Shown: positions 10,537-37,774 of the stretch, piece after piece
Numbering within the stretch: position 1 is the first letter of the stretch
Layout: every line of letters begins with the position of its first letter
DNA from: Patescibacteria group bacterium
GTDB lineage: Bacteria > Patescibacteriota > Minisyncoccia > Moranbacterales > UBA9337
Length of the DNA stretch: 64,000 nt
NCBI GenBank assembly: GCA_042569905.1
Contig: JBHPHA010000001.1
Coordinates: forward strand, 8,515 to 72,514
Direction of reading: 5' to 3'
Position numbers and translations under genes: made by a program
The notes under the pieces: generated by a model
What the model was told of the DNA's origin: nothing
The model's input: the letters and a program-made list of their open reading frames with translations, nothing else
Databases searched by the model: none

Positions 10537-11154
10537 CTAGTTAAAAAATCCTGCTATTTGTCTCACGATTATCATAGAAGCTAAAGCAATAACAATTCCA
10601 ATAATTGCCCACTTTGTCATACCTTTAGCTGTCTCAATCCTACTATCATCACCAGCTGAGAAAAAGTACATTATTCCAGAAGAAACAAGCATAATGATTC
10701 CCAAGATACCCACTACACCAAGAAGGAAATTCAAAAGGTTCAATAATATCTGTGCTAAACTCAATGATTTACCAAATGCATCAGTATCCTGTCCCCATCC
10801 TAAAATATCAGCAATTTCCTTCAAAAAAGAAGGAGCTGCAATTCCAATTGCAAGTCCTACCATTGACGCAACAATCGCCCCCTTTGCAAGAGTCATTCTG
10901 CCCTCATTACCAGCAGAGGTGATATACAAAATTGCCCCAATAACAATGAATATAATAGAAAGAACTACAATAATTCCCTGCAGAGTACTCAGTATTGACC
11001 CCACTAATTCATTAACGGTCTCATATTCTAGAGGATTACAAAATTGCGTATCACCACCACATTCCTTAGCTAATGAAACATTTGATAGACCAAATGTGGC
11101 CATAACAGCAATAAATACGGATAATACTATTTTGCTAAAAAATTTTATTTTCAT
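10537..11154 (-). CDS. T4SS pilin-like (TrbC/VirB2-like) protein, tandem two-domain form
   Basis: Signal peptide, then two repeats of TM-helix - Y.TSAG[ND].......AK - TM-helix. Confidence 0.6.
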   Translation of the reverse strand: MKIKFFSKIVLSVFIAVMATFGLSNVSLAKECGGDTQFCNPLEYETVNELVGSILSTLQGIIVVLSIIFIVIGAILYITSAGNEGRMTLAKGAIVASMVGLAIGIAAPSFLKEIADILGWGQDTDAFGKSLSLAQILLNLLNFLLGVVGILGIIMLVSSGIMYFFSAGDDSRIETAKGMTKWAIIGIVIALASMIIVRQIAGFFN

Positions 11155-11178
11155 TTTTTTGTTATTACATTTTAAAAA

Positions 11179-11628
11179 TTAAAAACCAGCAGAAGCATTC
11201 AAAAGATTATCAATCGCCTGAATAACCACAAATCCGATTAGACCTACCACTACTCCTATAATTGACCATATCATATGCTTTTTCGCTTTTTCCATAGAAG
11301 TATCATCCCCAGCAGCCATAAAGTATTGAAGCCCTGCCAATGCAAAAGACACTACTGCTAAAACTCCGAAAATTCCCAGTATCCATTGCATGAAGTTAAA
11401 AATAATTGTTGTCACTGGATCCTCTCCACCTGGATCTGGAAGCCCTGTCTCAAATGGTATACACACGCCTGAATATTCATCAACCTCTAATCCAGTTGGG
11501 CAAACAATAGCATCAGCAAAATTAGTGCCTCCCAAAAAAATAAAAACTGCCAACATCGCAACTGGCAAATATACTGCTCTTAAAAAAAATTTATTCATAT
11601 TTTTATTGAAAAAATTAATACCACCCAA
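11179..11628 (-). CDS. T4SS pilin-like (TrbC/VirB2-like) protein
   Basis: Signal peptide plus ...WILGIFGVLAVVSFALAGLQYFMAAGDDTSMEKAKK...IQAIDNLLNASAGF. The C-terminus and 3' nucleotide sequence are near-identical to the 11705 paralog. Confidence 0.6.
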   Translation of the reverse strand: MGGINFFNKNMNKFFLRAVYLPVAMLAVFIFLGGTNFADAIVCPTGLEVDEYSGVCIPFETGLPDPGGEDPVTTIIFNFMQWILGIFGVLAVVSFALAGLQYFMAAGDDTSMEKAKKHMIWSIIGVVVGLIGFVVIQAIDNLLNASAGF

Positions 11629-11650
11629 TAATATATTTACATTATACCAT

Positions 11651-11686
11651 AAAAAAACAAACGACCTAAATCGTTTGTTTTTTTAT
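11651..11686. terminator. bidirectional Rho-independent terminator
   Basis: aaacaaacga-cctaaa-tcgtttgttt flanked by an A-run and a T-run. Confidence 0.55.
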
Positions 11687-11704
11687 AATTTAGATCACAT
11701 ATCA

Positions 11705-12076
11705 CTAGAAACCAGCAGAAGCATTCAATAGATTATCAACGGCTTGAATAATCACGAATCCCATCAAAGCAACAATTACTCCAATAATAGACCATATCAT
11801 AGAATTCTTTCCCTTTTCCATCTTACTATCATCACCTGCTGCTGTTAGATACCAAATACCTGCGATAGCAAAACCAATTATACCAAACACGCCTACTAGT
11901 CCCAATATCCAGTTCATTACATTCGTCACAATTTCTGATACTCCTCCAGATGGCAATCCTGCGCCACTAGCTGCGCTCTTTCCAGTGCCCCATTGTGCAA
12001 AAGACACACTAGGAGAAAGCAGGATAGCTCCTAGAATACCGAAAAACAGACCTTTAAATTTATTTTTTATTTTCAT
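11705..12076 (-). CDS. T4SS pilin-like (TrbC/VirB2-like) protein
   Basis: Start trimmed to the internal ATG at 12074-12076 (MKIKNKFKG...) to remove overlap with the upstream paralog. Same two-helix AAGDD...KxK core. Confidence 0.6.
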   Translation of the reverse strand: MKIKNKFKGLFFGILGAILLSPSVSFAQWGTGKSAASGAGLPSGGVSEIVTNVMNWILGLVGVFGIIGFAIAGIWYLTAAGDDSKMEKGKNSMIWSIIGVIVALMGFVIIQAVDNLLNASAGF

Positions 12077-12092
12077 ATTTTTTTTACTTTGT

Positions 12093-12446
12093 CTAAAAAT
12101 CTGCAGCCTCTCCTCCGAGCATTGAATTAACCGCTTGAATAATAACAACACCTAACAACGCAACGACAACACCTACAATAGACCATACCATCGCTCGCTT
12201 AGCTGTATCGATTCTAGTTTCATCACCAGCAGCTGTTAGATACAAAATACCCGCGATAGCAAAACCAATAACACCAAAAAGTCCGACTAATCCCAGTAGC
12301 CACTGCATAATCTGCTCAATAATTCCAAAAATACTTCCCTTTGGTAAATCAACACCAGACGGCGCATCATAAGCTGACGCCATCACTGGAGCAACTATTA
12401 CTAAAGAAATTAATCCGTAAGCAATTTTTTTAATTTTTGTTTTCAT
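12093..12446 (-). CDS. T4SS pilin-like (TrbC/VirB2-like) protein
   Basis: Start at the ATG 12444-12446 with an AAGGAGGTG SD immediately upstream. Core ...LYLTAAGDETRIDTAKRAMVWSIVGVVVAL. Confidence 0.6.
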   Translation of the reverse strand: MKTKIKKIAYGLISLVIVAPVMASAYDAPSGVDLPKGSIFGIIEQIMQWLLGLVGLFGVIGFAIAGILYLTAAGDETRIDTAKRAMVWSIVGVVVALLGVVIIQAVNSMLGGEAADF

Positions 12447-12495
12447 ATAAACACCTCCTTTCATTATTTGTTTTTATTTTTTGTTTTTTCTTCCG

Positions 12496-12777
12496 TTATA
12501 CTAAAAATTTAATAATTTGACGTACGATTATCATAGACCCCAACACAACAGCAATTCCTACAACAATATACACAGTCATTTTTTTCGCCGCGTCTGTTTT
12601 TCTCTCATCTCCTGCAGCAAAAAAATACAAGACTCCCGTAACAACTAATGCTATTATACCAAGAATTCCAGAAACTCGCAACAAAAAATTAAGCACATTT
12701 AGAAAAACTTCAGCAAAACTAGGAGCATCCTCAATAACACCCGCATGTGCAATATTTATTAAATTAAATAAATCCAT
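12496..12777 (-). CDS. T4SS pilin-like (TrbC/VirB2-like) protein, short form
   Basis: 93 aa with a single two-helix unit (FFAAGDERKTDAAKK). Confidence 0.5.
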   Translation of the reverse strand: MDLFNLINIAHAGVIEDAPSFAEVFLNVLNFLLRVSGILGIIALVVTGVLYFFAAGDERKTDAAKKMTVYIVVGIAVVLGSMIIVRQIIKFLV

Positions 12778-32516: not shown

Positions 32517-33389
32517 TTATTTTTGACACGAAGCACAATAAAACACACTTCGCTGATTTATCTTCTCTCTTTTTACCATTGTATCACACTTCTCACATTT
32601 TTCACCTTCCTTATTATACACCTTTAAGTGTTTATGCATTTCGCCAGGCGCACCAGATGTATCCCTATAATCACTATCAGATGTTCCTCTATACCTTATA
32701 GCCTTCTTAATTACCTTTAGTATGTTCTCATGAATCACTTCGACTTCTTCATCATTCAACTCACTAATTTTTCTTTTTGGATTAATTCCAGACTCAAAAA
32801 GAATTTCGCTTCTATAAATATTTCCAATTCCAGAAATCAGTGACTGATCCATTAAAACATTTCCGATAACACTCCTCTGTTTCTTCTTAAGTAAGTTTCT
32901 GAAAAATTCCAATGTAAACCGCCTATCCATCACATCCACTCCTAATTTAGAAATTTCAGGTAATTCATCTATCTTACTTGTATCCACTAACATGATCTTT
33001 CCAAATTTTCTCAAATCAGAAAATTCCAAAGTTTTTCGATTTCCATCACTATTCTCCAATGTCCATATATGACGAATATATCCATTTACCTTTTCATCAA
33101 AATATCCTACTTTGTCACCGTTTTTTTCTCGATACTCCTTGACCAACAAATGTCCTGTCATTTTCAGATGAATATAAATTGCTTTTCCGCCTGACAAGAT
33201 AATGAAAATATTTTTTCCAAGCCGCCCTGCATTCAAAATTTCTCTTCCAATAATTCCTTTTTTAAACTCATTCAAAGAATTATTCTTAATCGATTTCTCC
33301 CAAAAACTTTCAAAGTTAATAATCTTATCACCTTTAATCTTTCTATTTAAATCATCCACAATCGTTTGAACCTCTGGTAATTCAGGCAT
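32517..33389 (-). CDS. mutM: formamidopyrimidine-DNA glycosylase
   Basis: MPELPEVQT N-terminus with catalytic Pro2/Glu3. H2TH region. C-terminal CxxC...CxxC zinc finger. Confidence 0.85.
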   Translation of the reverse strand: MPELPEVQTIVDDLNRKIKGDKIINFESFWEKSIKNNSLNEFKKGIIGREILNAGRLGKNIFIILSGGKAIYIHLKMTGHLLVKEYREKNGDKVGYFDEKVNGYIRHIWTLENSDGNRKTLEFSDLRKFGKIMLVDTSKIDELPEISKLGVDVMDRRFTLEFFRNLLKKKQRSVIGNVLMDQSLISGIGNIYRSEILFESGINPKRKISELNDEEVEVIHENILKVIKKAIRYRGTSDSDYRDTSGAPGEMHKHLKVYNKEGEKCEKCDTMVKREKINQRSVFYCASCQK

Positions 33390-33515
33390 TTTTATTATGT
33401 AATTTTATAATTTAAATTTTCAATTTTGCAATGAATTTTTACTTACTAAGTTTAAAACAAAAAAACTCCACAAATATTACTTAAATTTTACATTAGAAGT
33501 ATTATCGCCGCAACT

Positions 33516-33556
33516 AAAAAACGAATGAAAAATATTATTTTCATTCGCTTTATTTT
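33516..33556. terminator. Rho-independent terminator, paralog of the one at 34011
   Basis: cgaatgaaaa-atattat-tttcattcg with A- and T-runs on either side. Confidence 0.6.
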
Positions 33557-33578
33557 ACACATTATTCATTCATGCGAA

Positions 33579-33926
33579 TTACAAAGAATCAGTTTCTGTG
33601 AAGTGCTTAGCACCACACACCTCGCAAACATATGTAGTTTCTTCTATTTGATTGATAACATCATCTCGACTGGAACTTTTTTTCATCTTCCCATAACAAC
33701 TCACGCACGTCTTTTTTCTTTCAAAGATAATATTACTTTGACACTTACTACAATAAGCTTCGAAAAATTCCACATGAACCTCGCCAACCGCAACATTCAG
33801 ATGATCCTTAGGATGATCACATTTAGCTTGAAGTGCTTCAATTTTTTTCCCAAGCAATTCAATAACCTTCTTAAGATTTGAAATATACCCCTTAATCAAC
33901 ATAACTTCAATTCCTACATCACACAT
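33579..33926 (-). CDS. Cys-rich zinc-ribbon protein, paralog 1 of a 3-member family
   Basis: Motif KCDHPKDHL plus three CxxC pairs. AAGGAG SD. Confidence 0.45.
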   Translation of the reverse strand: MCDVGIEVMLIKGYISNLKKVIELLGKKIEALQAKCDHPKDHLNVAVGEVHVEFFEAYCSKCQSNIIFERKKTCVSCYGKMKKSSSRDDVINQIEETTYVCEVCGAKHFTETDSL

Positions 33927-34010
33927 GCGAATACTCCTTTTGTAAATATGAATACTTAAGAGTGAAAAGAACTTGTCAGCATACTAGCAGAATTATCAGT
34001 TTTTGTAAAC

Positions 34011-34050
34011 AAAAAAACGAATGAAAAACTTTGTTTTCATTCGTTATATT
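34011..34050 (-). terminator. Rho-independent terminator
   Basis: aacgaatgaaaa-actttg-ttttcattcgtt with a T-run on the minus strand. Confidence 0.6.
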
Positions 34051-34057
34051 TATCATA

Positions 34058-34396
34058 TTACTTCTTTATGATACTCGCTGTTTTTGTGCGATCATCTACC
34101 TTGTATCGAGTTTTGCACTGCTCGCAAAAATAGACAGAATCACCCTCGTCATTCACACCACTCAGACACTCAACGCACCACTGCCTTCTCGAAAGTAAAC
34201 GAGTTGATAAGCACCGCTTACAAAAAGCGTGCATATTTGCGTAAGTATTACTTCTTTGATCAATTTCCAAGTCTTCCCTAGGATGAGAACATTCCTCTTG
34301 AAGTAGAGCTATTCTTTTTTCATGATCAGAGATATTTCCTTTCTCGTCGCGAATCGCCCCTTTCCTCAACGAGATTTCTCTTGTAATTTCATCCAT
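34058..34396 (-). CDS. Cys-rich zinc-ribbon protein, paralog 2
   Basis: ECSHPREDL plus CxxC pairs. AGGAG SD. Confidence 0.45.
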   Translation of the reverse strand: MDEITREISLRKGAIRDEKGNISDHEKRIALLQEECSHPREDLEIDQRSNTYANMHAFCKRCLSTRLLSRRQWCVECLSGVNDEGDSVYFCEQCKTRYKVDDRTKTASIIKK

Positions 34397-34422
34397 AACT
34401 ATTCACTCCTAAAAATGATTCA

Positions 34423-34748
34423 CTAAACATGGGTGATGTCTGAATACACATAGCTACACGCAGAACACGCATATTTTTCCTCACCTTCAATACCACTCTT
34501 AATCTGTCCCATCTCATTGAAGCAACTTGGACAAGTATCTTTTCTTGATGTCGCTATTTTTGATGAGCACTCACGACAAGTCATTTCAAAAGATGCCCCG
34601 CAAATCCCATCTTCAACATAAAGACTATCTCTGGGATGATCACACTTTGACTGCACCTCTTGAATAAATTTTTGACACTTTTTTTCATGTTATCCAAGCC
34701 AGAAATAACTTCATTAATCATTTCTATTGTTTTTCTTGTCTTTGACAT
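34423..34748 (-). pseudogene. Cys-rich zinc-ribbon paralog 3, frameshifted or recoded
   Basis: The frame-A N-terminus (ATG 34746-34748, MSKTRKTIEMINEVISGLDNMKK) aligns to the paralog N-termini. The frame-B body (34423..34656, KCDHPRDSL...) follows. The frames join at the A7 run at 34679-34685 through a -1 shift. Confidence 0.5.
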
Positions 34749-35257
34749 ACATCCTCCCGCTTATTTAACGATTCATCGATAACATCAACAGTAATACCGC
34801 TTTCTCGTAAAAGTTCTATTGCCGCTTCACCTTCGCCATTACTTTTTTTATACAATTCACCATAAACCAATCTATTAATCTCCAGATTAATCAAGTGTTT
34901 TGCAGAGTGCATACAGGGACTCATACTGCAGTAGGCTGTCGAACCTACAAGATCTTCTTTATTCTTCAATGCATCCAGCGTAGCATTCATCTCAGAATAC
35001 GCACCAACACACCATTCGGTTTTAAAAAAATCCTTATTGCACCTACCATAATCAATACAATGGTCAGATCCAATTGGAGCTCCATTGTACCCATAAGACA
35101 GCAACCTGTTATCTCGAATAAATATTGATCCGAGTTCGTTCTTCATGCAAGTTGATCTTTTTCCGAACACTTTGGCCACCTCTAACCACATTTCATCCCA
35201 ACCCAATCTTTCTTTACGCATATCATCGCATCCTTCAGTATCAGAAGTTTTTTTCAA
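34724..35257 (-). CDS. cytidine/dCMP deaminase-fold protein with non-canonical zinc ligands
   Basis: Aligns from memory to ComEB-type dCMP deaminases (RSTC, GYNG, HCIDYG, SEMNATL, SPC). H of HAE is replaced by Y and the second Cys of PCxxC by S. Confidence 0.5.
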   Translation of the reverse strand: MKKTSDTEGCDDMRKERLGWDEMWLEVAKVFGKRSTCMKNELGSIFIRDNRLLSYGYNGAPIGSDHCIDYGRCNKDFFKTEWCVGAYSEMNATLDALKNKEDLVGSTAYCSMSPCMHSAKHLINLEINRLVYGELYKKSNGEGEAAIELLRESGITVDVIDESLNKREDVCQRQEKQ

Positions 35258-35275: not shown

Positions 35276-36790
35276 TCAGCTCATCTTCTTATTGTCAATA
35301 TAAACTAAGCCTAAGATTAGCCAAAAAAACAACATTCCATAATGACTCGTCCAAAGCCAATGATCAAGCATCATGAAAATAAATAACGCTACAAAAATTG
35401 GAAGTGCTTTGATTCCAGTTTTCATGATAAGTAAAACAAGCATTGTGCTAAACAAAACAAATCCCACCAATCCAAGTTCAGAAAAAATTAAAAGAAAAAT
35501 ATTGTGCACTGGTTGATATTCCCAAACAGGTCTCTGCAGCCTGTCATTTTTCATAACCTCAAGGGTGTAATTCCCTGCACCCACTCCCACAAAAAAATCA
35601 TCTTGGATAACCTGACTTGCTTCTGTAACATAGCTCACTCGATCCATTACTGACTTTTGTTCCAACCTTGCACTTCCATCAAACCGAGAAAAAAAGTTTT
35701 CGTGATTTATCCCGACAATCAGCGTAGCGAAAACAATCATCGCTACAAACCACCCCACTTTGTCATTTTTTTTATTTTTCTGTTTGAAAATTTCACCACT
35801 AAAAATTGACTTTAAATTGAAAAATTTAAATTGAAAAATTACAATAATAGCCAGCGCCAGCCAGGCACTCCTCGAAAAAGAAAAAAGTAAGCCAGTAATT
35901 AATAAGCAGCAACCGACAATCAACAATCCATATGAAATATATTTTTTTCGTTTGAAAATTTCATAATTTAAAATTGAATTTAAATTGAAAATTTTAAATT
36001 TTAAATTCAACCCACTAATCACAAGCATTACCAAAGCCAAATATCCCCCAAACATATTCGGATGAGAAAAACCTCCATAAGCCCGAAGCCATCTTCCAGT
36101 TTCATTTTCCAAAACACTCACACCTCCGATTGAAGCCACATACTCACTCATCCCCAACCACTTACTCGAGAAAGTCTCCTGGCTCAAATACTGCCAAGTC
36201 CCAAGTCCAGATTGAATCACTGCACCAACAAGCAAAACAAAGATCAACTTTCGAAAATCAAATTTAATTTTCTGAACCGCAAAAAATAATCCTACACCCA
36301 AAAACATTTTAAAAGAAAAATACAAAGCCAAAAATCTGTCATCCGCCCAAACAATTGACAACACCATCCAAAGCAAAAAAAGAATTACTAAACCATTTGC
36401 ATTGTCATCTCGAGTACAGTTGAATGGTTCGCCACGGCGAAGAACGAAACGTAGTCGAGAGATCTCACCCTGAATATAGCCCCAGGACTTTGTAATGTTG
36501 AGATTTCTCCACTCTCCGCCTAGGCGGATTCGGTCGAAATGACACATTAAAATACCTTTCAATTTTTCCACCACAATCAACACCAAAAGAAATACTAAAA
36601 TAAAATCTGAAAAATAAACCCCAACTGTCCCATACTGCCACTTCTCACCTCCAACAAAAATTTCCCGCACCAAAAAAACAGTCTGCCATGGTAGTAAAAA
36701 TACAAAACCATAAAAAAGATATTCAATTACTCGCCCCCTTCCCTTCTTTGCATTCAAAGGGAGGATCGAGGATCGGTTTTCATCCTTCAT
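35276..36790 (-). CDS. O-antigen ligase-like polytopic membrane protein
   Basis: More than 10 TM segments. FSRSAWLAL motif typical of the Wzy_C/O-antigen ligase family. Contains an internal 60-nt direct repeat. Confidence 0.4.
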   Translation of the reverse strand: MKDENRSSILPLNAKKGRGRVIEYLFYGFVFLLPWQTVFLVREIFVGGEKWQYGTVGVYFSDFILVFLLVLIVVEKLKGILMCHFDRIRLGGEWRNLNITKSWGYIQGEISRLRFVLRRGEPFNCTRDDNANGLVILFLLWMVLSIVWADDRFLALYFSFKMFLGVGLFFAVQKIKFDFRKLIFVLLVGAVIQSGLGTWQYLSQETFSSKWLGMSEYVASIGGVSVLENETGRWLRAYGGFSHPNMFGGYLALVMLVISGLNLKFKIFNLNSILNYEIFKRKKYISYGLLIVGCCLLITGLLFSFSRSAWLALAIIVIFQFKFFNLKSIFSGEIFKQKNKKNDKVGWFVAMIVFATLIVGINHENFFSRFDGSARLEQKSVMDRVSYVTEASQVIQDDFFVGVGAGNYTLEVMKNDRLQRPVWEYQPVHNIFLLIFSELGLVGFVLFSTMLVLLIMKTGIKALPIFVALFIFMMLDHWLWTSHYGMLFFWLILGLVYIDNKKMS

Positions 36791-36906: not shown

Positions 36907-37227
36907 TTACACCAAATATTCTTTACAGTGAGGACACTGATACTGTGGCTCCTTGTAACTTTGATTACAATATTCACAAAAAACTACTTGTCCAGTTCCT
37001 AATTCCACACCCTCAAAAGGTAACGGGAAAATAGACTTAATTGTAACCCTTTCTCCCATCTCCGCGTCAGCTCGATCTAAGGTCTCCTTATTGATGATAG
37101 GAAATGAAAATGAAACGACCTTACTATGATCATAATCGACTCTTCCCGAAAAACAGCTCGGACCTCCTTCATAAGTAGCGTAATGCACCAAATAGGCCCA
37201 GGTTCTTTTTACTTTAGGATCACTCAT
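36907..37227 (-). CDS. hypothetical protein with a C-terminal CxxC...CxxC zinc ribbon
   Basis: GGGGGA SD. Overlaps the upstream gene by 8 nt. Confidence 0.3.
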   Translation of the reverse strand: MSDPKVKRTWAYLVHYATYEGGPSCFSGRVDYDHSKVVSFSFPIINKETLDRADAEMGERVTIKSIFPLPFEGVELGTGQVVFCEYCNQSYKEPQYQCPHCKEYLV

Positions 37228-37774
37228 GACACTTCCCCCTTATTGAATCTCTGCAATGATCAAAATACCCTGCATCATTTAGTTTTTTGACAGCCATATC
37301 TAGAATAGAATCACTCAATTTCTGGCCGATAAGATAAGCTACGGTGCATTTAAACACCCTGCAAACAGCTGGTCTACGATCATAGACCCCGCAACCATCT
37401 CTACAATAGACACACTTACCCGTAGACTTATCTTTTAATAAGTAATTCTCATAGTCTACATTAAAACTCTGCTCGAATTCCCAATCAATAAGTTTAACAT
37501 TAAAACTTTCACCACAGCATTCCGAGCAATCTCCACAGTTCATGTTCTCCATCCCAACTTTCTCAAAAAATTCTTTTTCTCGAGAGTTTTCGGGATCATC
37601 TCGAAATCGAGGAGACTCCTGGATTTCTTTAATAACAAAAAAATCAGAACTAAATCTTGAAACATCAAGTGTTTTTTGCATCTTATTTCTGCTCTCAGCA
37701 AGCCAAACGAATGAAAATGGAACTCCATTTTTCGACTCAATCAAAACCAGAAATATTTTCTCATTTTTACTCAT
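37220..37774 (-). CDS. YkgJ-family (CxxCxxCC zinc/iron-chelating domain) protein with an N-terminal extension
   Basis: CGDCSECC...CVYCRDGCGVYDRRPAVCRVFKC matches the YkgJ signature. GGGGGA SD. Confidence 0.5.
   Translation of the reverse strand: MSKNEKIFLVLIESKNGVPFSFVWLAESRNKMQKTLDVSRFSSDFFVIKEIQESPRFRDDPENSREKEFFEKVGMENMNCGDCSECCGESFNVKLIDWEFEQSFNVDYENYLLKDKSTGKCVYCRDGCGVYDRRPAVCRVFKCTVAYLIGQKLSDSILDMAVKKLNDAGYFDHCRDSIRGKCHE

What the first reader, a model, noticed from the sequence alone, without database searches (positions are those of the whole stretch)
33512..35257. Triplicated Cys-rich zinc-ribbon gene family downstream of a deaminase-fold gene; third copy needs a -1 frameshift at an A7 run
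Three tandem minus-strand paralogs of 115, 112 and ~108 aa. They share K.I..LQ..C[DS]HP[KR][DE].L plus three CxxC pairs.

- Each has its own strong SD (AAGGAG, AGGAG, GGGAGG).
- Two carry near-identical terminators (cgaatgaaaa...ttttcattcg). The duplications are therefore gene-plus-terminator units.

In the third copy the conserved N-terminus (MSKTRKTIEMINEVISGLDNMKK, ATG at 34746-34748) is in a different frame from the C[DS]HP body. The frames meet in an A7 run (minus strand; plus strand T7 at 34679..34685). A -1 slip converts ATG AAA AAA AGT to ...AAA AAG TGT.

Possible explanations are programmed -1 frameshifting, a phase-variable homopolymer, an assembly error, or a pseudogene.

I do not recognise the family. 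Its position next to a deaminase-fold protein with altered metal ligands is notable.
Basis: seen in the sequence. Interest (0 to 1): 0.65.

Follow-up and report, generated by a model that had tools for sequence, protein, structure and literature searches.

The report
Tandem zinc-protein genes, one frameshifted
Three neighbouring genes in an uncultured Patescibacteria genome encode a rare, unnamed family of small zinc-binding proteins, and one copy is broken by a single missing A in a run of A's; this looks like an ordinary recent mutation or assembly miscount, not programmed recoding.

Summary
Three minus-strand paralogs (A 33579-33926, B 34058-34396, C 34423-34748) share a long N-terminal helix ending in C-x-H-P, followed by three CxxC pairs. 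Each has its own Shine-Dalgarno (SD) site. Two are followed by near-identical terminators. Copy C is split over two frames that meet at an A7 run (34679-34685).

Intact relatives from other metagenomes (P0004, P0006) are collinear with the fused reading. DNA alignment to the orthologous contig shows exactly one base missing at the run. These orthologs have no A-run and no frameshift. I found no slippery heptamer in register, no upstream SD-like site and no downstream RNA structure. Programmed frameshifting is therefore not supported.

The lesion is best read as a recent one-base deletion (A8 to A7), or as an assembly miscount. Only reads can separate these two. A real mutation is slightly favoured, because the co-transcribed deaminase has also lost two of its three zinc ligands and its original stop codon.

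The family matches no Pfam, NCBIfam, PHROG or PADLOC model. About 20 relatives exist among 1.84 billion representative proteins. It occupies a variable slot between a Wzy_C-like gene and fpg, and its function is unknown. Overall interest is low to moderate.

The parts
33579..33926 (-). Copy A, intact 115-aa member of the small two-zinc-site family. Its SD (AAGGAG) lies 7 nt upstream of the ATG.
   Evidence: ORF and translation. NCBI protein P0001. AlphaFold2 model with pLDDT 94.1: helix 3-34 plus six strands.
33522..33547 (-). Intrinsic terminator hairpin after copy A (CGAATGAAAA-loop-TTTTCATTCG, then T6).
   Evidence: Fold is -14.7 kcal/mol, z = -4.9. Positional orthologues are L014_T3 and L004_T.
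33981..34009 (-). Promoter-like site for copy A (TTTACA-17-TAGTAT with a TG extension), just after the copy-B terminator.
   Evidence: Consensus scan. The TGTTTACAAAAA segment is conserved after terminator T2 of L014. Function is inferred.
34018..34043 (-). Intrinsic terminator hairpin after copy B, followed by T7.
   Evidence: Fold is -12.2 kcal/mol, z = -4.0.
34058..34396 (-). Copy B, intact 112-aa member with SD AGGAG. No terminator separates C from B, so the two are probably co-transcribed.
   Evidence: NCBI protein P0002. Closest relative is P0005 in L014.
34423..34680 (-). Copy C body frame: codons 24-108 of the fused reading plus the stop. It contains CDHP and three CxxC pairs. NCBI annotated only a 77-aa GTG-start version (34423-34656).
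   Evidence: Collinear with P0006 and P0004.
34680..34748 (-). Copy C N-terminal frame: codons 1-23, MSKTRKTIEMINEVISGLDNMKK. SD GGGAGG lies 4 nt upstream. Left uncorrected, this frame runs on to a 55-aa product ending at 34581.
   Evidence: 14 of 23 residues are identical to the P0004 N-terminus. The fused AlphaFold2 model has a continuous helix 3-35, pLDDT 94.9.
34679..34685 (-). A7 run (T7 on the plus strand) where the two frames meet. One base is missing relative to the orthologue.
   Evidence: DNA alignment to L002 shows a single 1-nt gap here.
34724..35257 (-). dCMP-deaminase/ComEB-like gene (likely ATG at 35221). It has Y in place of the HxE histidine and S in place of the second Cys of PCxxC. 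Its ORF overlaps the copy C start by 25 nt.
   Evidence: Pfam PF00383 E=2.4e-13. TIGR02571 scores below its cutoff. Alignments. dN/dS.
35276..36790 (-). Conserved upstream flank: Wzy_C-like (O-antigen-ligase family) membrane protein.
   Evidence: Pfam PF04932 E=5e-17. Orthologues lie next to family members in L004 and L014, and next to fpg in L006.
32517..33389 (-). Conserved downstream flank: fpg/mutM.
   Evidence: TIGR00577 scores 242.9 bits, above its cutoff. In L006 it directly follows the Wzy_C-like gene.

Best explanation
The locus is a variable gene slot between two conserved genes, a Wzy_C-like gene and fpg, in a Moraniibacteriota-like Patescibacteria genome.

**What the slot holds.** It carries a birth-and-death array of an unnamed family of roughly 110-aa cytoplasmic proteins.
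- Each protein has a ~32-residue N-terminal helix that ends in C-x-H-P.
- A beta-rich domain follows, carrying three CxxC knuckles.
- That gives eight ligands, enough for two zinc sites (inferred): C-x-H plus the first CxxC, and a classical zinc ribbon formed by the last two CxxC pairs.
- The array grows by duplication of gene-plus-terminator units.
- In this genome the transcription units are probably deaminase-C-B-terminator, then promoter-A-terminator.

**What happened to copy C.** It has lost one A from what should be an A8 run, which splits it into a 55-aa ORF and a body with no start signal.
- The event is recent and not programmed.
- I commit to a real mutation that makes copy C a young pseudogene.
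- At most it is expressed at a low level, when RNA polymerase (or the ribosome) slips by one A on the run.
- The loss is tolerated because copies A and B are intact, and because the deaminase-C operon is under relaxed constraint in this lineage.

**Function (inferred only).** The family are small zinc-ribbon adaptor or regulator proteins that bind nucleic acid or a partner protein through the ribbon and pair up through the helix.
For: **Paralogy and fold**
- Paralogy and the conserved ligands.
- High-confidence models of copy A (pLDDT 94.1) and fused copy C (94.9, with an unbroken helix across the junction).

**The frameshift is a one-base loss, not a conserved feature**
- Intact collinear homologues exist: P0006 (109 aa, E=1e-26, no gap at the junction) and P0004.
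- DNA alignment to orthologous contig L002 shows exactly one missing base at the run. The orthologue reads aaaggtata, with no A-run.
- All eight other family genes inspected in seven loci are single uninterrupted ORFs.

**No recoding signals**
- The downstream RNA fold has z = 0.2.
- No heptamer in register and no internal SD (direct reading).

**The lesion is recent**
- It is the only lesion in copy C, although dS is about 0.74 to the orthologue.
- dN/dS is below 1 on both sides of the shift: 0.47 and 0.32, from small counts.

**Relaxed constraint on the operon**
- The deaminase is the only one of 11 aligned sequences with H to Y and C to S at zinc ligands.
- A 2-nt indel removed its ancestral stop codon.

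**No systematic homopolymer error**
- Of the 116 homopolymer runs listed (A/T of 7 nt or more, G/C of 6 or more), roughly 85 lie inside long intact ORFs. This is the only one found to break a frame.

**Variable slot**
- L006 has Wzy_C-like followed directly by fpg.
- L004 has one family gene in the slot.
- L014 has two family genes plus a 61-aa ORF.
- The window has the deaminase plus three family genes.
- The terminator modules are homologous across these genomes.

**Slippage is plausible at low level**
- Single-base transcriptional insertions concentrate in A/T runs and rise exponentially with run length (PMC5574713).
- Frameshifted genes in AT-rich reduced genomes can be partly rescued this way (PMC3017870).
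Against: - No reads were available, so a consensus or assembly miscount of A8 as A7 gives exactly the same sequence picture.
- Both halves of copy C are otherwise pristine, which is also what an artefact predicts.
- The deaminase core has dN/dS of 0.05. The operon is therefore not visibly degraded beyond the ligand changes, and those could reflect a changed function rather than decay.
- A7 is short for efficient transcriptional slippage. Well-studied cases use runs of about 9 or more (PMC5009743).
- The functional assignment for the family rests only on a roughly 40-residue zinc-ribbon fold resemblance, with E-values of 0.0017 or worse.
- pI values are near neutral, which does not suggest a strongly basic nucleic-acid binder.
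Confidence: 0.5

Rival explanations
1. Assembly or consensus artefact, or a minority allele fixed in the metagenome-assembled genome (MAG). The real population carries A8, and copy C is an ordinary intact 108-aa gene.
For: - There is a single lesion, located exactly in a homopolymer.
- Both halves are otherwise intact and under apparent constraint.
- The A8 reading is perfectly collinear with P0004 and P0006.
- The fused protein models as a coherent fold.
- The sequence comes from a metagenome-assembled genome.
Against: - Roughly 85 other homopolymer runs lie in intact ORFs in the same 64 kb, so errors are not systematic.
- The neighbouring co-transcribed deaminase carries three independent unusual changes that cannot be homopolymer errors. 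This suggests genuine relaxed selection at this locus.
- No A8 allele is on record among 15 billion proteins, although this genome is represented there only once.
Confidence: 0.3
2. Functional use of the run. Either the homopolymer acts as a phase-variable ON/OFF switch, or a constant fraction of full-length product is made by transcriptional slippage or -1 ribosomal frameshifting. The 55-aa helix-only peptide could be a second product.
For: - The correction needed is a +1 A insertion in the mRNA, or a -1 P-site slip of tRNA-Lys on AAA AAA A. Both are the kinds of event A-runs favour (PMC5574713, PMC5009743).
- The run lies early in the gene.
- The strong SD is retained, and the two frames overlap cleanly.
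Against: - It is not conserved: orthologues lack both the run and the shift.
- There is no X XXY YYZ heptamer in the zero frame, no upstream SD-like stimulator and no downstream structure.
- A7 runs are commonplace here: 116 homopolymer runs were listed in 64 kb, nearly all A/T of 7 nt or more.
- A7 is short for phase variation or for efficient slippage.
Confidence: 0.12
3. The annotated 77-aa GTG-start protein (34423-34656) is the real product: a helix-less but functional variant. The 55-aa ORF would then be a leftover or an upstream ORF.
For: - NCBI annotated it this way (P0003).
- A naturally helix-less 80-aa member with its own SD exists in L014.
- All eight zinc ligands are retained in the 77-aa version.
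Against: - The GTG has no usable SD. The AAGAGG abuts it with no spacer, whereas all three paralogs use well-spaced strong SD sites.
- The strong SD and ATG of the ancestral start are still in place 92 nt upstream, and would load ribosomes into the wrong frame across the GTG.
- The frame-A N-terminus is clearly homologous to the helix of intact relatives.
Confidence: 0.08

Closest known systems
Classical zinc-ribbon modules of small regulators (NrdR N-terminal ribbon, MqsA N-terminal ribbon, Lar restriction-alleviation proteins, TFIIS/Rpb9 ribbons)
   Same: - The C-terminal half (CxxC ... CxxC on beta-hairpins) superposes on these ribbons over about 40 residues at 1.2-2.0 A rmsd.
- There are weak profile hints to Zn_ribbon_SprT, Zn_ribbon_RPB9 and a Lar-like PHROG.
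   Different: - No match is significant: the best full-length Foldseek E-value is 1.7e-3, and the ribbon hits are at E of 0.026 or worse.
- All Pfam scores fall below the gathering cutoffs.
- There is no ATP-cone (NrdR) and no helix-turn-helix domain (MqsA).
- The protein has an extra N-terminal 32-residue helix and an extra C-x-H-P plus CxxC site that none of these families has.
Homopolymer frameshifts in AT-rich reduced genomes, partly rescued by transcriptional slippage (Buchnera, Blochmannia)
   Same: - A single indel inside a poly(A) tract of an otherwise intact gene in a small AT-rich genome.
- The correction required is a one-A insertion in the mRNA, the class of transcription error that dominates in A/T runs (PMC5574713, PMC3017870).
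   Different: - The run here is only 7 nt, whereas the documented rescued cases involve longer tracts (for example 11 A in visC, PMC3017870; about 9 in PMC5009743).
- No conservation of the frameshift across strains or species could be shown.
- No expression data exist.
Programmed -1 ribosomal frameshifting of the dnaX / IS3-family type (A AAA AAG)
   Same: - An A-rich lysine-codon run.
- The shifted product would read K-K-K, exactly as at such sites.
   Different: - The AAAAAAG motif sits in the wrong register for the zero frame.
- There is no upstream SD-like stimulator and no downstream hairpin or pseudoknot.
- It is not conserved in orthologues.
- The zero-frame product has no evident role.
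dCMP deaminase / ComEB family (the neighbouring gene)
   Same: - Pfam dCMP_cyt_deam_1 E=2.4e-13, and PHROG dCMP deaminase E=2.5e-30.
- The catalytic Glu and the first Cys are retained.
   Different: - The zinc-ligand His is replaced by Tyr, and the second Cys of PCxxC by Ser. This is unique among the 11 aligned relatives.
- It scores well below the TIGR02571 equivalog cutoff: 77.5 against 219 bits.

Membership tests
Any curated protein family (Pfam, NCBIfam, PHROGs, PADLOC) | Score at or above the family's curated cutoff, or a significant E-value. | tested here: not met
   - The best Pfam hit is Zn_ribbon_SprT at 22 bits against a cutoff of 28.1.
- No Pfam family is shared by more than 2 of 18 members.
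- NCBIfam gives nothing near its cutoffs.
- PHROG hits have E of 0.006 or worse.
- PADLOC gives no hit for the three paralogs.
Zinc-ribbon fold class | Two CxxC knuckles on beta-hairpins that together bind one zinc. | tested here: met
   - C74xxC77 and C101xxC104 are invariant or nearly invariant in 18 members.
- In the high-confidence model they lie at strand ends.
- The region superposes on the NrdR, MqsA and Lar ribbons at 1.2-2.0 A over about 40 residues.
- Metal binding itself was not tested.
NrdR family | An N-terminal zinc ribbon followed by an ATP-cone domain. | tested here: not met
   The proteins are 108-115 aa with no ATP-cone, and only 40-45 alignment columns match.
Programmed -1 ribosomal frameshift site | A slippery heptamer X XXY YYZ in the zero frame. 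| tested here: not met
   - The zero frame reads ATG AAA AAA AGT.
- Tandem slippage would need G AAA AAA, with a GAA mismatch in the P site.
- Only a single-tRNA P-site slip is possible (direct reading).
Programmed -1 ribosomal frameshift site | A stimulatory element: a downstream hairpin or pseudoknot, or an upstream SD-like sequence. | tested here: not met
   - The 89 nt downstream fold at -17.0 kcal/mol against a shuffle mean of -17.6, z = 0.2.
- There is no GGAGG/AGGAG in the 30 nt upstream.
Programmed -1 ribosomal frameshift site | The shift site and the two-frame arrangement are conserved in orthologues. | tested here: not met
   P0004 (L002) and P0006 (L004) are single ORFs with no A-run at this position. 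All other family genes seen are uninterrupted.
Transcriptional-slippage-rescued frameshift (Buchnera/Blochmannia type) | An indel within a long poly(A)/poly(T) tract of an otherwise intact gene. | tested here: inconclusive
   There is a single indel in an A-run and the gene is otherwise intact. However, the tract is only 7 nt, at the low end for slippage (PMC5574713, PMC5009743).
Transcriptional-slippage-rescued frameshift (Buchnera/Blochmannia type) | A mixed mRNA pool with corrected transcripts, and the frameshift persisting across strains. | not testable with these tools
   There is no transcriptome, no reads and no sister strain. An exact-sequence look-up found neither allele elsewhere.
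Phase-variable contingency locus | A hypermutable repeat, longer than the genomic background, with length polymorphism within populations. | tested here: not met
   A7 is ordinary in this genome: 116 homopolymer runs were listed in 64 kb, nearly all A/T of 7 nt or more and some up to 9. Polymorphism cannot be tested without reads.
dCMP deaminase (the neighbouring gene) | The catalytic zinc triad: His of H-[AS]-E plus both Cys of PCxxC. | tested here: not met
   The window has YSE and PCMHS. The other 10 aligned relatives, including orthologue L002, have H and C at these positions.

The most novel reading that the evidence does not exclude
The slot between the Wzy_C-like gene and fpg is a fast-turnover conflict or host-interaction island.
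- In this reading the zinc proteins diversify under positive selection.
- Their terminators are homogenised by gene conversion.
- The A-run in the first gene acts as a slippage-controlled dimmer or ON/OFF switch for the deaminase-linked copy.
- This would be a previously undescribed small-protein system specific to Patescibacteria.
Probability: 0.07. Interest if true: 0.6.

Novelty: new variant of a known kind. Interest (0 to 1): 0.25.

Why it matters
**What it does not add.** It adds no new recoding mechanism. The frameshift is the commonest kind of lesion, or artefact, in an AT-rich genome.

**What has modest value.**
- It defines a previously unnamed, very rare family of small two-zinc-site proteins.
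  - There are about 20 relatives among 1.84 billion representative proteins.
  - Every member whose source is named comes from Patescibacteria.
  - The fold is predicted with confidence.
  - The family undergoes birth-and-death turnover in a fixed genomic slot.
- Its terminators show intra-genome homogenisation.
- It flags an annotation error: the 77-aa GTG-start call should be a frameshifted 108-aa gene.
- It flags a deaminase that has lost two zinc ligands while its core remains under strong purifying selection.

Tried and rejected
- **Word-index homology searches.** The paralog alignment found only the window's own proteins. With the 18-member alignment it found only six proteins: the window's own copy A and five relatives, four of them already known. 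The exhaustive HMMER search was what produced the relatives.
- **Species-representative genomes.**
  - Scanning 185,579 genomes with the family alignment found nothing.
  - An earlier attempt failed because the alignment was too diverse.
- **Viral contigs.** No relatives.
- **Metagenome scan.** Only a 68-aa half-length relative, on a phage-like contig.
- **Exact look-ups.**
  - P0001 and P0003, and the fused, A5 and 55-aa products, gave no independent assembly and no intact allele.
- **Fold libraries.**
  - Foldseek against PDB and BFVD gave only generic ribbon matches.
- **Profile search against PDB sequences.** Only compositional hits to C2H2 zinc-finger arrays and coiled coils.
- **A second frameshift at 11.2-12.5 kb.** Rejected: these are separate tandem paralogs of a small membrane protein.
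- **The hairpin as a genome-wide repeat.** Rejected: only two copies in 64 kb.
- **A defence-system reading.** Rejected for lack of any PADLOC hit beyond the generic deaminase domain.
- **Rfam and tRNA scans.** Nothing in the region.
- **Literature search.** Nothing relevant on Patescibacteria small zinc-ribbon proteins.
Full report
**1. Observation**

The region was read on the minus strand. Three ORFs lie in tandem:
- Copy A, 33579-33926, 115 aa.
- Copy B, 34058-34396, 112 aa.
- Copy C, which is split.
  - An ATG at 34746-34748 opens a 55-aa frame.
  - The conserved body (...CDHP...) lies in the frame one base back and ends with a stop at 34423-34425.

The frames meet at a minus-strand A7 run (plus-strand T7, 34679-34685). 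Adding one A (A8, equivalent to a -1 slip) or removing two (A5) fuses them.

The A8 reading gives a 108-aa protein.

Paralogy is significant:
- A vs B gives E=6e-14, and A vs fused C gives E=4e-15.
- The invariant residues are C36, H38, P39, C59/C62, C74/C77 and C101/C104.

Each copy has a well-spaced SD site.

Copies A and B are followed by hairpin terminators:
- They sit inside a 63-nt direct repeat of 79% identity.
- They are the only two matches to this hairpin in the window, where 0 are expected.
- Both fold far better than shuffles, z = -4.9 and -4.0.

**2. Source and family**

The proteins are NCBI hypothetical proteins ACFL08_00250, 00255 and 00260 from a 'Patescibacteria group bacterium' MAG. 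Copy C is annotated only as a 77-aa GTG-start protein.

No curated family matches:
- Pfam, NCBIfam, PHROGs and PADLOC give nothing above threshold for the three paralogs.
- Nor does Pfam for any of 18 family members.

An exhaustive HMMER search of 1.84 billion representative proteins found 21 hits at E of 0.001 or better. Three are the window's own proteins, three look spurious, and about 15 are genuine relatives of 87-136 aa. All share the same ligand pattern.

This is a real but very rare family.

AlphaFold2 models are confident:
- Copy A has pLDDT 94.1 and pTM 0.73, with helix 3-34 followed by six strands.
- Fused copy C has pLDDT 94.9, with an unbroken helix 3-35 across the junction.

Foldseek against PDB and BFVD finds only a roughly 40-residue zinc-ribbon resemblance to the NrdR N-terminus, MqsA and Lar-type proteins. 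None of these matches is significant.

A profile search of PDB sequences gives only compositional hits.

**3. Is the fused reading the ancestral gene?**

Yes.
- P0006 (109 aa, contig L004) aligns end to end with fused C: residues 1-107, E=1e-26, with no gap at the junction.
- P0004 (contig L002) matches the frame-A N-terminus at 14 of 23 residues and then continues in one frame through CDHP.
- L002 is an orthologous contig. It carries the same deaminase at high nucleotide identity, followed by the same GGAGGATGTATG start context.
- The DNA alignment shows a single 1-nt gap in the window, exactly at the run (atgaaaaa-aagtgtc against atgaaaggtatatgtc).
- The orthologues have no A-run at this position and no frameshift.

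**4. Is it programmed?**

The defining features of programmed -1 frameshifting were tested and are not met:
- No X XXY YYZ heptamer in the zero frame (ATG AAA AAA AGT).
- No SD-like sequence upstream.
- No downstream structure, z = 0.2.
- No conservation in orthologues. All eight other family genes examined, in seven loci, are uninterrupted.

A7 runs are commonplace here. One search listed 116 homopolymer runs in 64 kb (A/T of 7 nt or more, G/C of 6 or more), which argues against a dedicated phase-variation tract.

A low level of correction is still plausible:
- Single-base transcriptional insertions concentrate in A/T runs and rise exponentially with run length (PMC5574713).
- Frameshifted genes in AT-rich reduced genomes can be partly rescued this way (PMC3017870).
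- Well-studied cases use longer runs (PMC5009743).

**5. Real mutation or artefact?**

This cannot be settled without reads.

For an artefact:
- There is a single lesion, in a homopolymer, in an otherwise pristine gene.
- dN/dS is below 1 on both sides of the shift.

For a real mutation:
- Roughly 85 other homopolymer runs in the window lie in intact ORFs. A suspected second case at 11-12.5 kb proved to be separate paralogs.
- The co-transcribed upstream deaminase carries three unusual changes.
  - His to Tyr in HxE.
  - Cys to Ser in PCxxC.
  - A 2-nt indel that removes the ancestral stop codon.
- The two ligand changes are unique among 11 aligned relatives.

I therefore put about 0.5 on a genuine recent deletion (a young pseudogene, perhaps leaky), about 0.3 on an assembly or consensus error, about 0.12 on functional slippage or phase variation, and about 0.08 on the annotated 77-aa product being functional.

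**6. Genomic setting**

The cassette occupies a variable slot.
- In the Candidatus Moraniibacteriota MAG L006, the Wzy_C-like gene is 54% identical to the window's. It is followed directly by fpg and the DUF3048 gene, in the same order as in the window but without the cassette.
- L004 has one family gene in the slot.
- L014 has two family genes plus a 61-aa ORF.
- L002 has the deaminase plus one family gene.
- The window has the deaminase plus three family genes.

The deaminase association is therefore not conserved.

Elsewhere, family members sit upstream of murD-murI in two syntenic genomes (L001, L015/L016), as a tandem pair beside murJ (L005), and beside dnaX (L017).

**7. Terminators**

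The same terminator module follows each family gene in L004 and L014.
- The flanks show positional orthology. The after-B type is followed by TGTTTACAAAAA, a promoter-like -35 region. The after-A type is followed by AGTTGC...CTTCTAATGTA.
- The stem sequence is uniform within a genome but differs between genomes by paired changes: GAAAA/TTTTC in the window, GAGA/TCTC in L014 and L004.
- This suggests concerted evolution.

**8. Function**

Function remains inferred.
- The eight conserved ligands fit two zinc sites.
- The C-terminal ribbon is of the type used for nucleic-acid or protein contacts in small regulators.
- The long helix could mediate pairing between copies.
- pI values are near neutral.
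- No defence-system or phage family matches.

My best guess is a small zinc-ribbon adaptor or regulator, held with low confidence.

**9. Verdict**

- The programmed-frameshift reading is not supported.
- The family is new to the curated databases, but it is one of many small orphan zinc-ribbon families in Patescibacteria.
- Interest is low to moderate.

Noticed in passing
window 34724-35221 (-): The dCMP-deaminase-like protein is the only one of 11 aligned relatives with Tyr in place of the zinc-ligand His (YSEMNA) and Ser in place of the second Cys of PCxxC (PCMHS). Its orthologue on L002 has H and C. Even so, the core dN/dS between the two is only about 0.05. Either inactivation is very recent, or a non-catalytic or altered function is being conserved.
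   Followed up: partly
window 34724-34760 (-); L002 270-300: Relative to L002, a 2-nt indel removes the deaminase's ancestral stop codon. The ORF is extended by about 10 codons and now overlaps the copy C start by 25 nt. There is also an in-frame 24-nt insertion (LYKKSNGE) upstream.
   Followed up: partly
window 33522-33547 and 34018-34043; L014 1173-1200, 1628-1655, 2013-2040; L004 1910-1937: The terminator stems are identical in type within each genome but differ between genomes by paired (compensatory) changes. Their flanks retain positional orthology. This pattern suggests gene conversion among terminator copies.
   Followed up: partly
L002 299-613 (P0004): The orthologue's gene looks like a chimera of a C-type N-terminal half and an A-type middle, and it lacks the fourth CxxC. 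No alternative frame restores it. This fits unequal recombination between tandem copies followed by decay.
   Followed up: partly
L014 1419-1604 and 1746-1988: At the orthologous slot in another MAG there is a 61-aa basic helical ORF with no Cys, possibly a degenerate member (it contains ...KKGEHPNPEK...). There is also an 80-aa member that naturally lacks the N-terminal helix.
   Followed up: no
L003 1013-1219: A phage-like contig carries a ClpP-like protease and a DUF2493/SLOG-like gene by my reading of the translations; neither was run against a family library. It also encodes a 68-aa half-length relative with the helix, CDHP and only one CxxC. The first zinc site may therefore be an independent module.
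   Followed up: no
window 10537-12777 (-): Five tandem paralogs of a small membrane protein with conserved C-terminal ends (...AAGDD...; two end in NLLNASAGF). I took them to be TrbC/VirB2-like pilin proteins, but did not test this. Their overlapping ORFs could be mistaken for frameshifts.
   Followed up: partly
window 33675-33689 vs 34677-34691: The same 12-mer, ATGAAAAAAAGT, occurs in frame in copy A (GKMKKS) and at the frameshift site of copy C, at non-homologous positions in the two proteins. This is probably a coincidence of Lys-rich, AT-rich coding.
   Followed up: no
window 36907-37774 (-): Two further small Cys-rich genes lie just upstream of the Wzy_C-like gene: a 106-aa protein with a C-terminal CxxC...CxxC, and a 184-aa CxxCxxCC/YkgJ-type protein (PF03692). 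By HMM they are unrelated to the triplicated family.
   Followed up: partly
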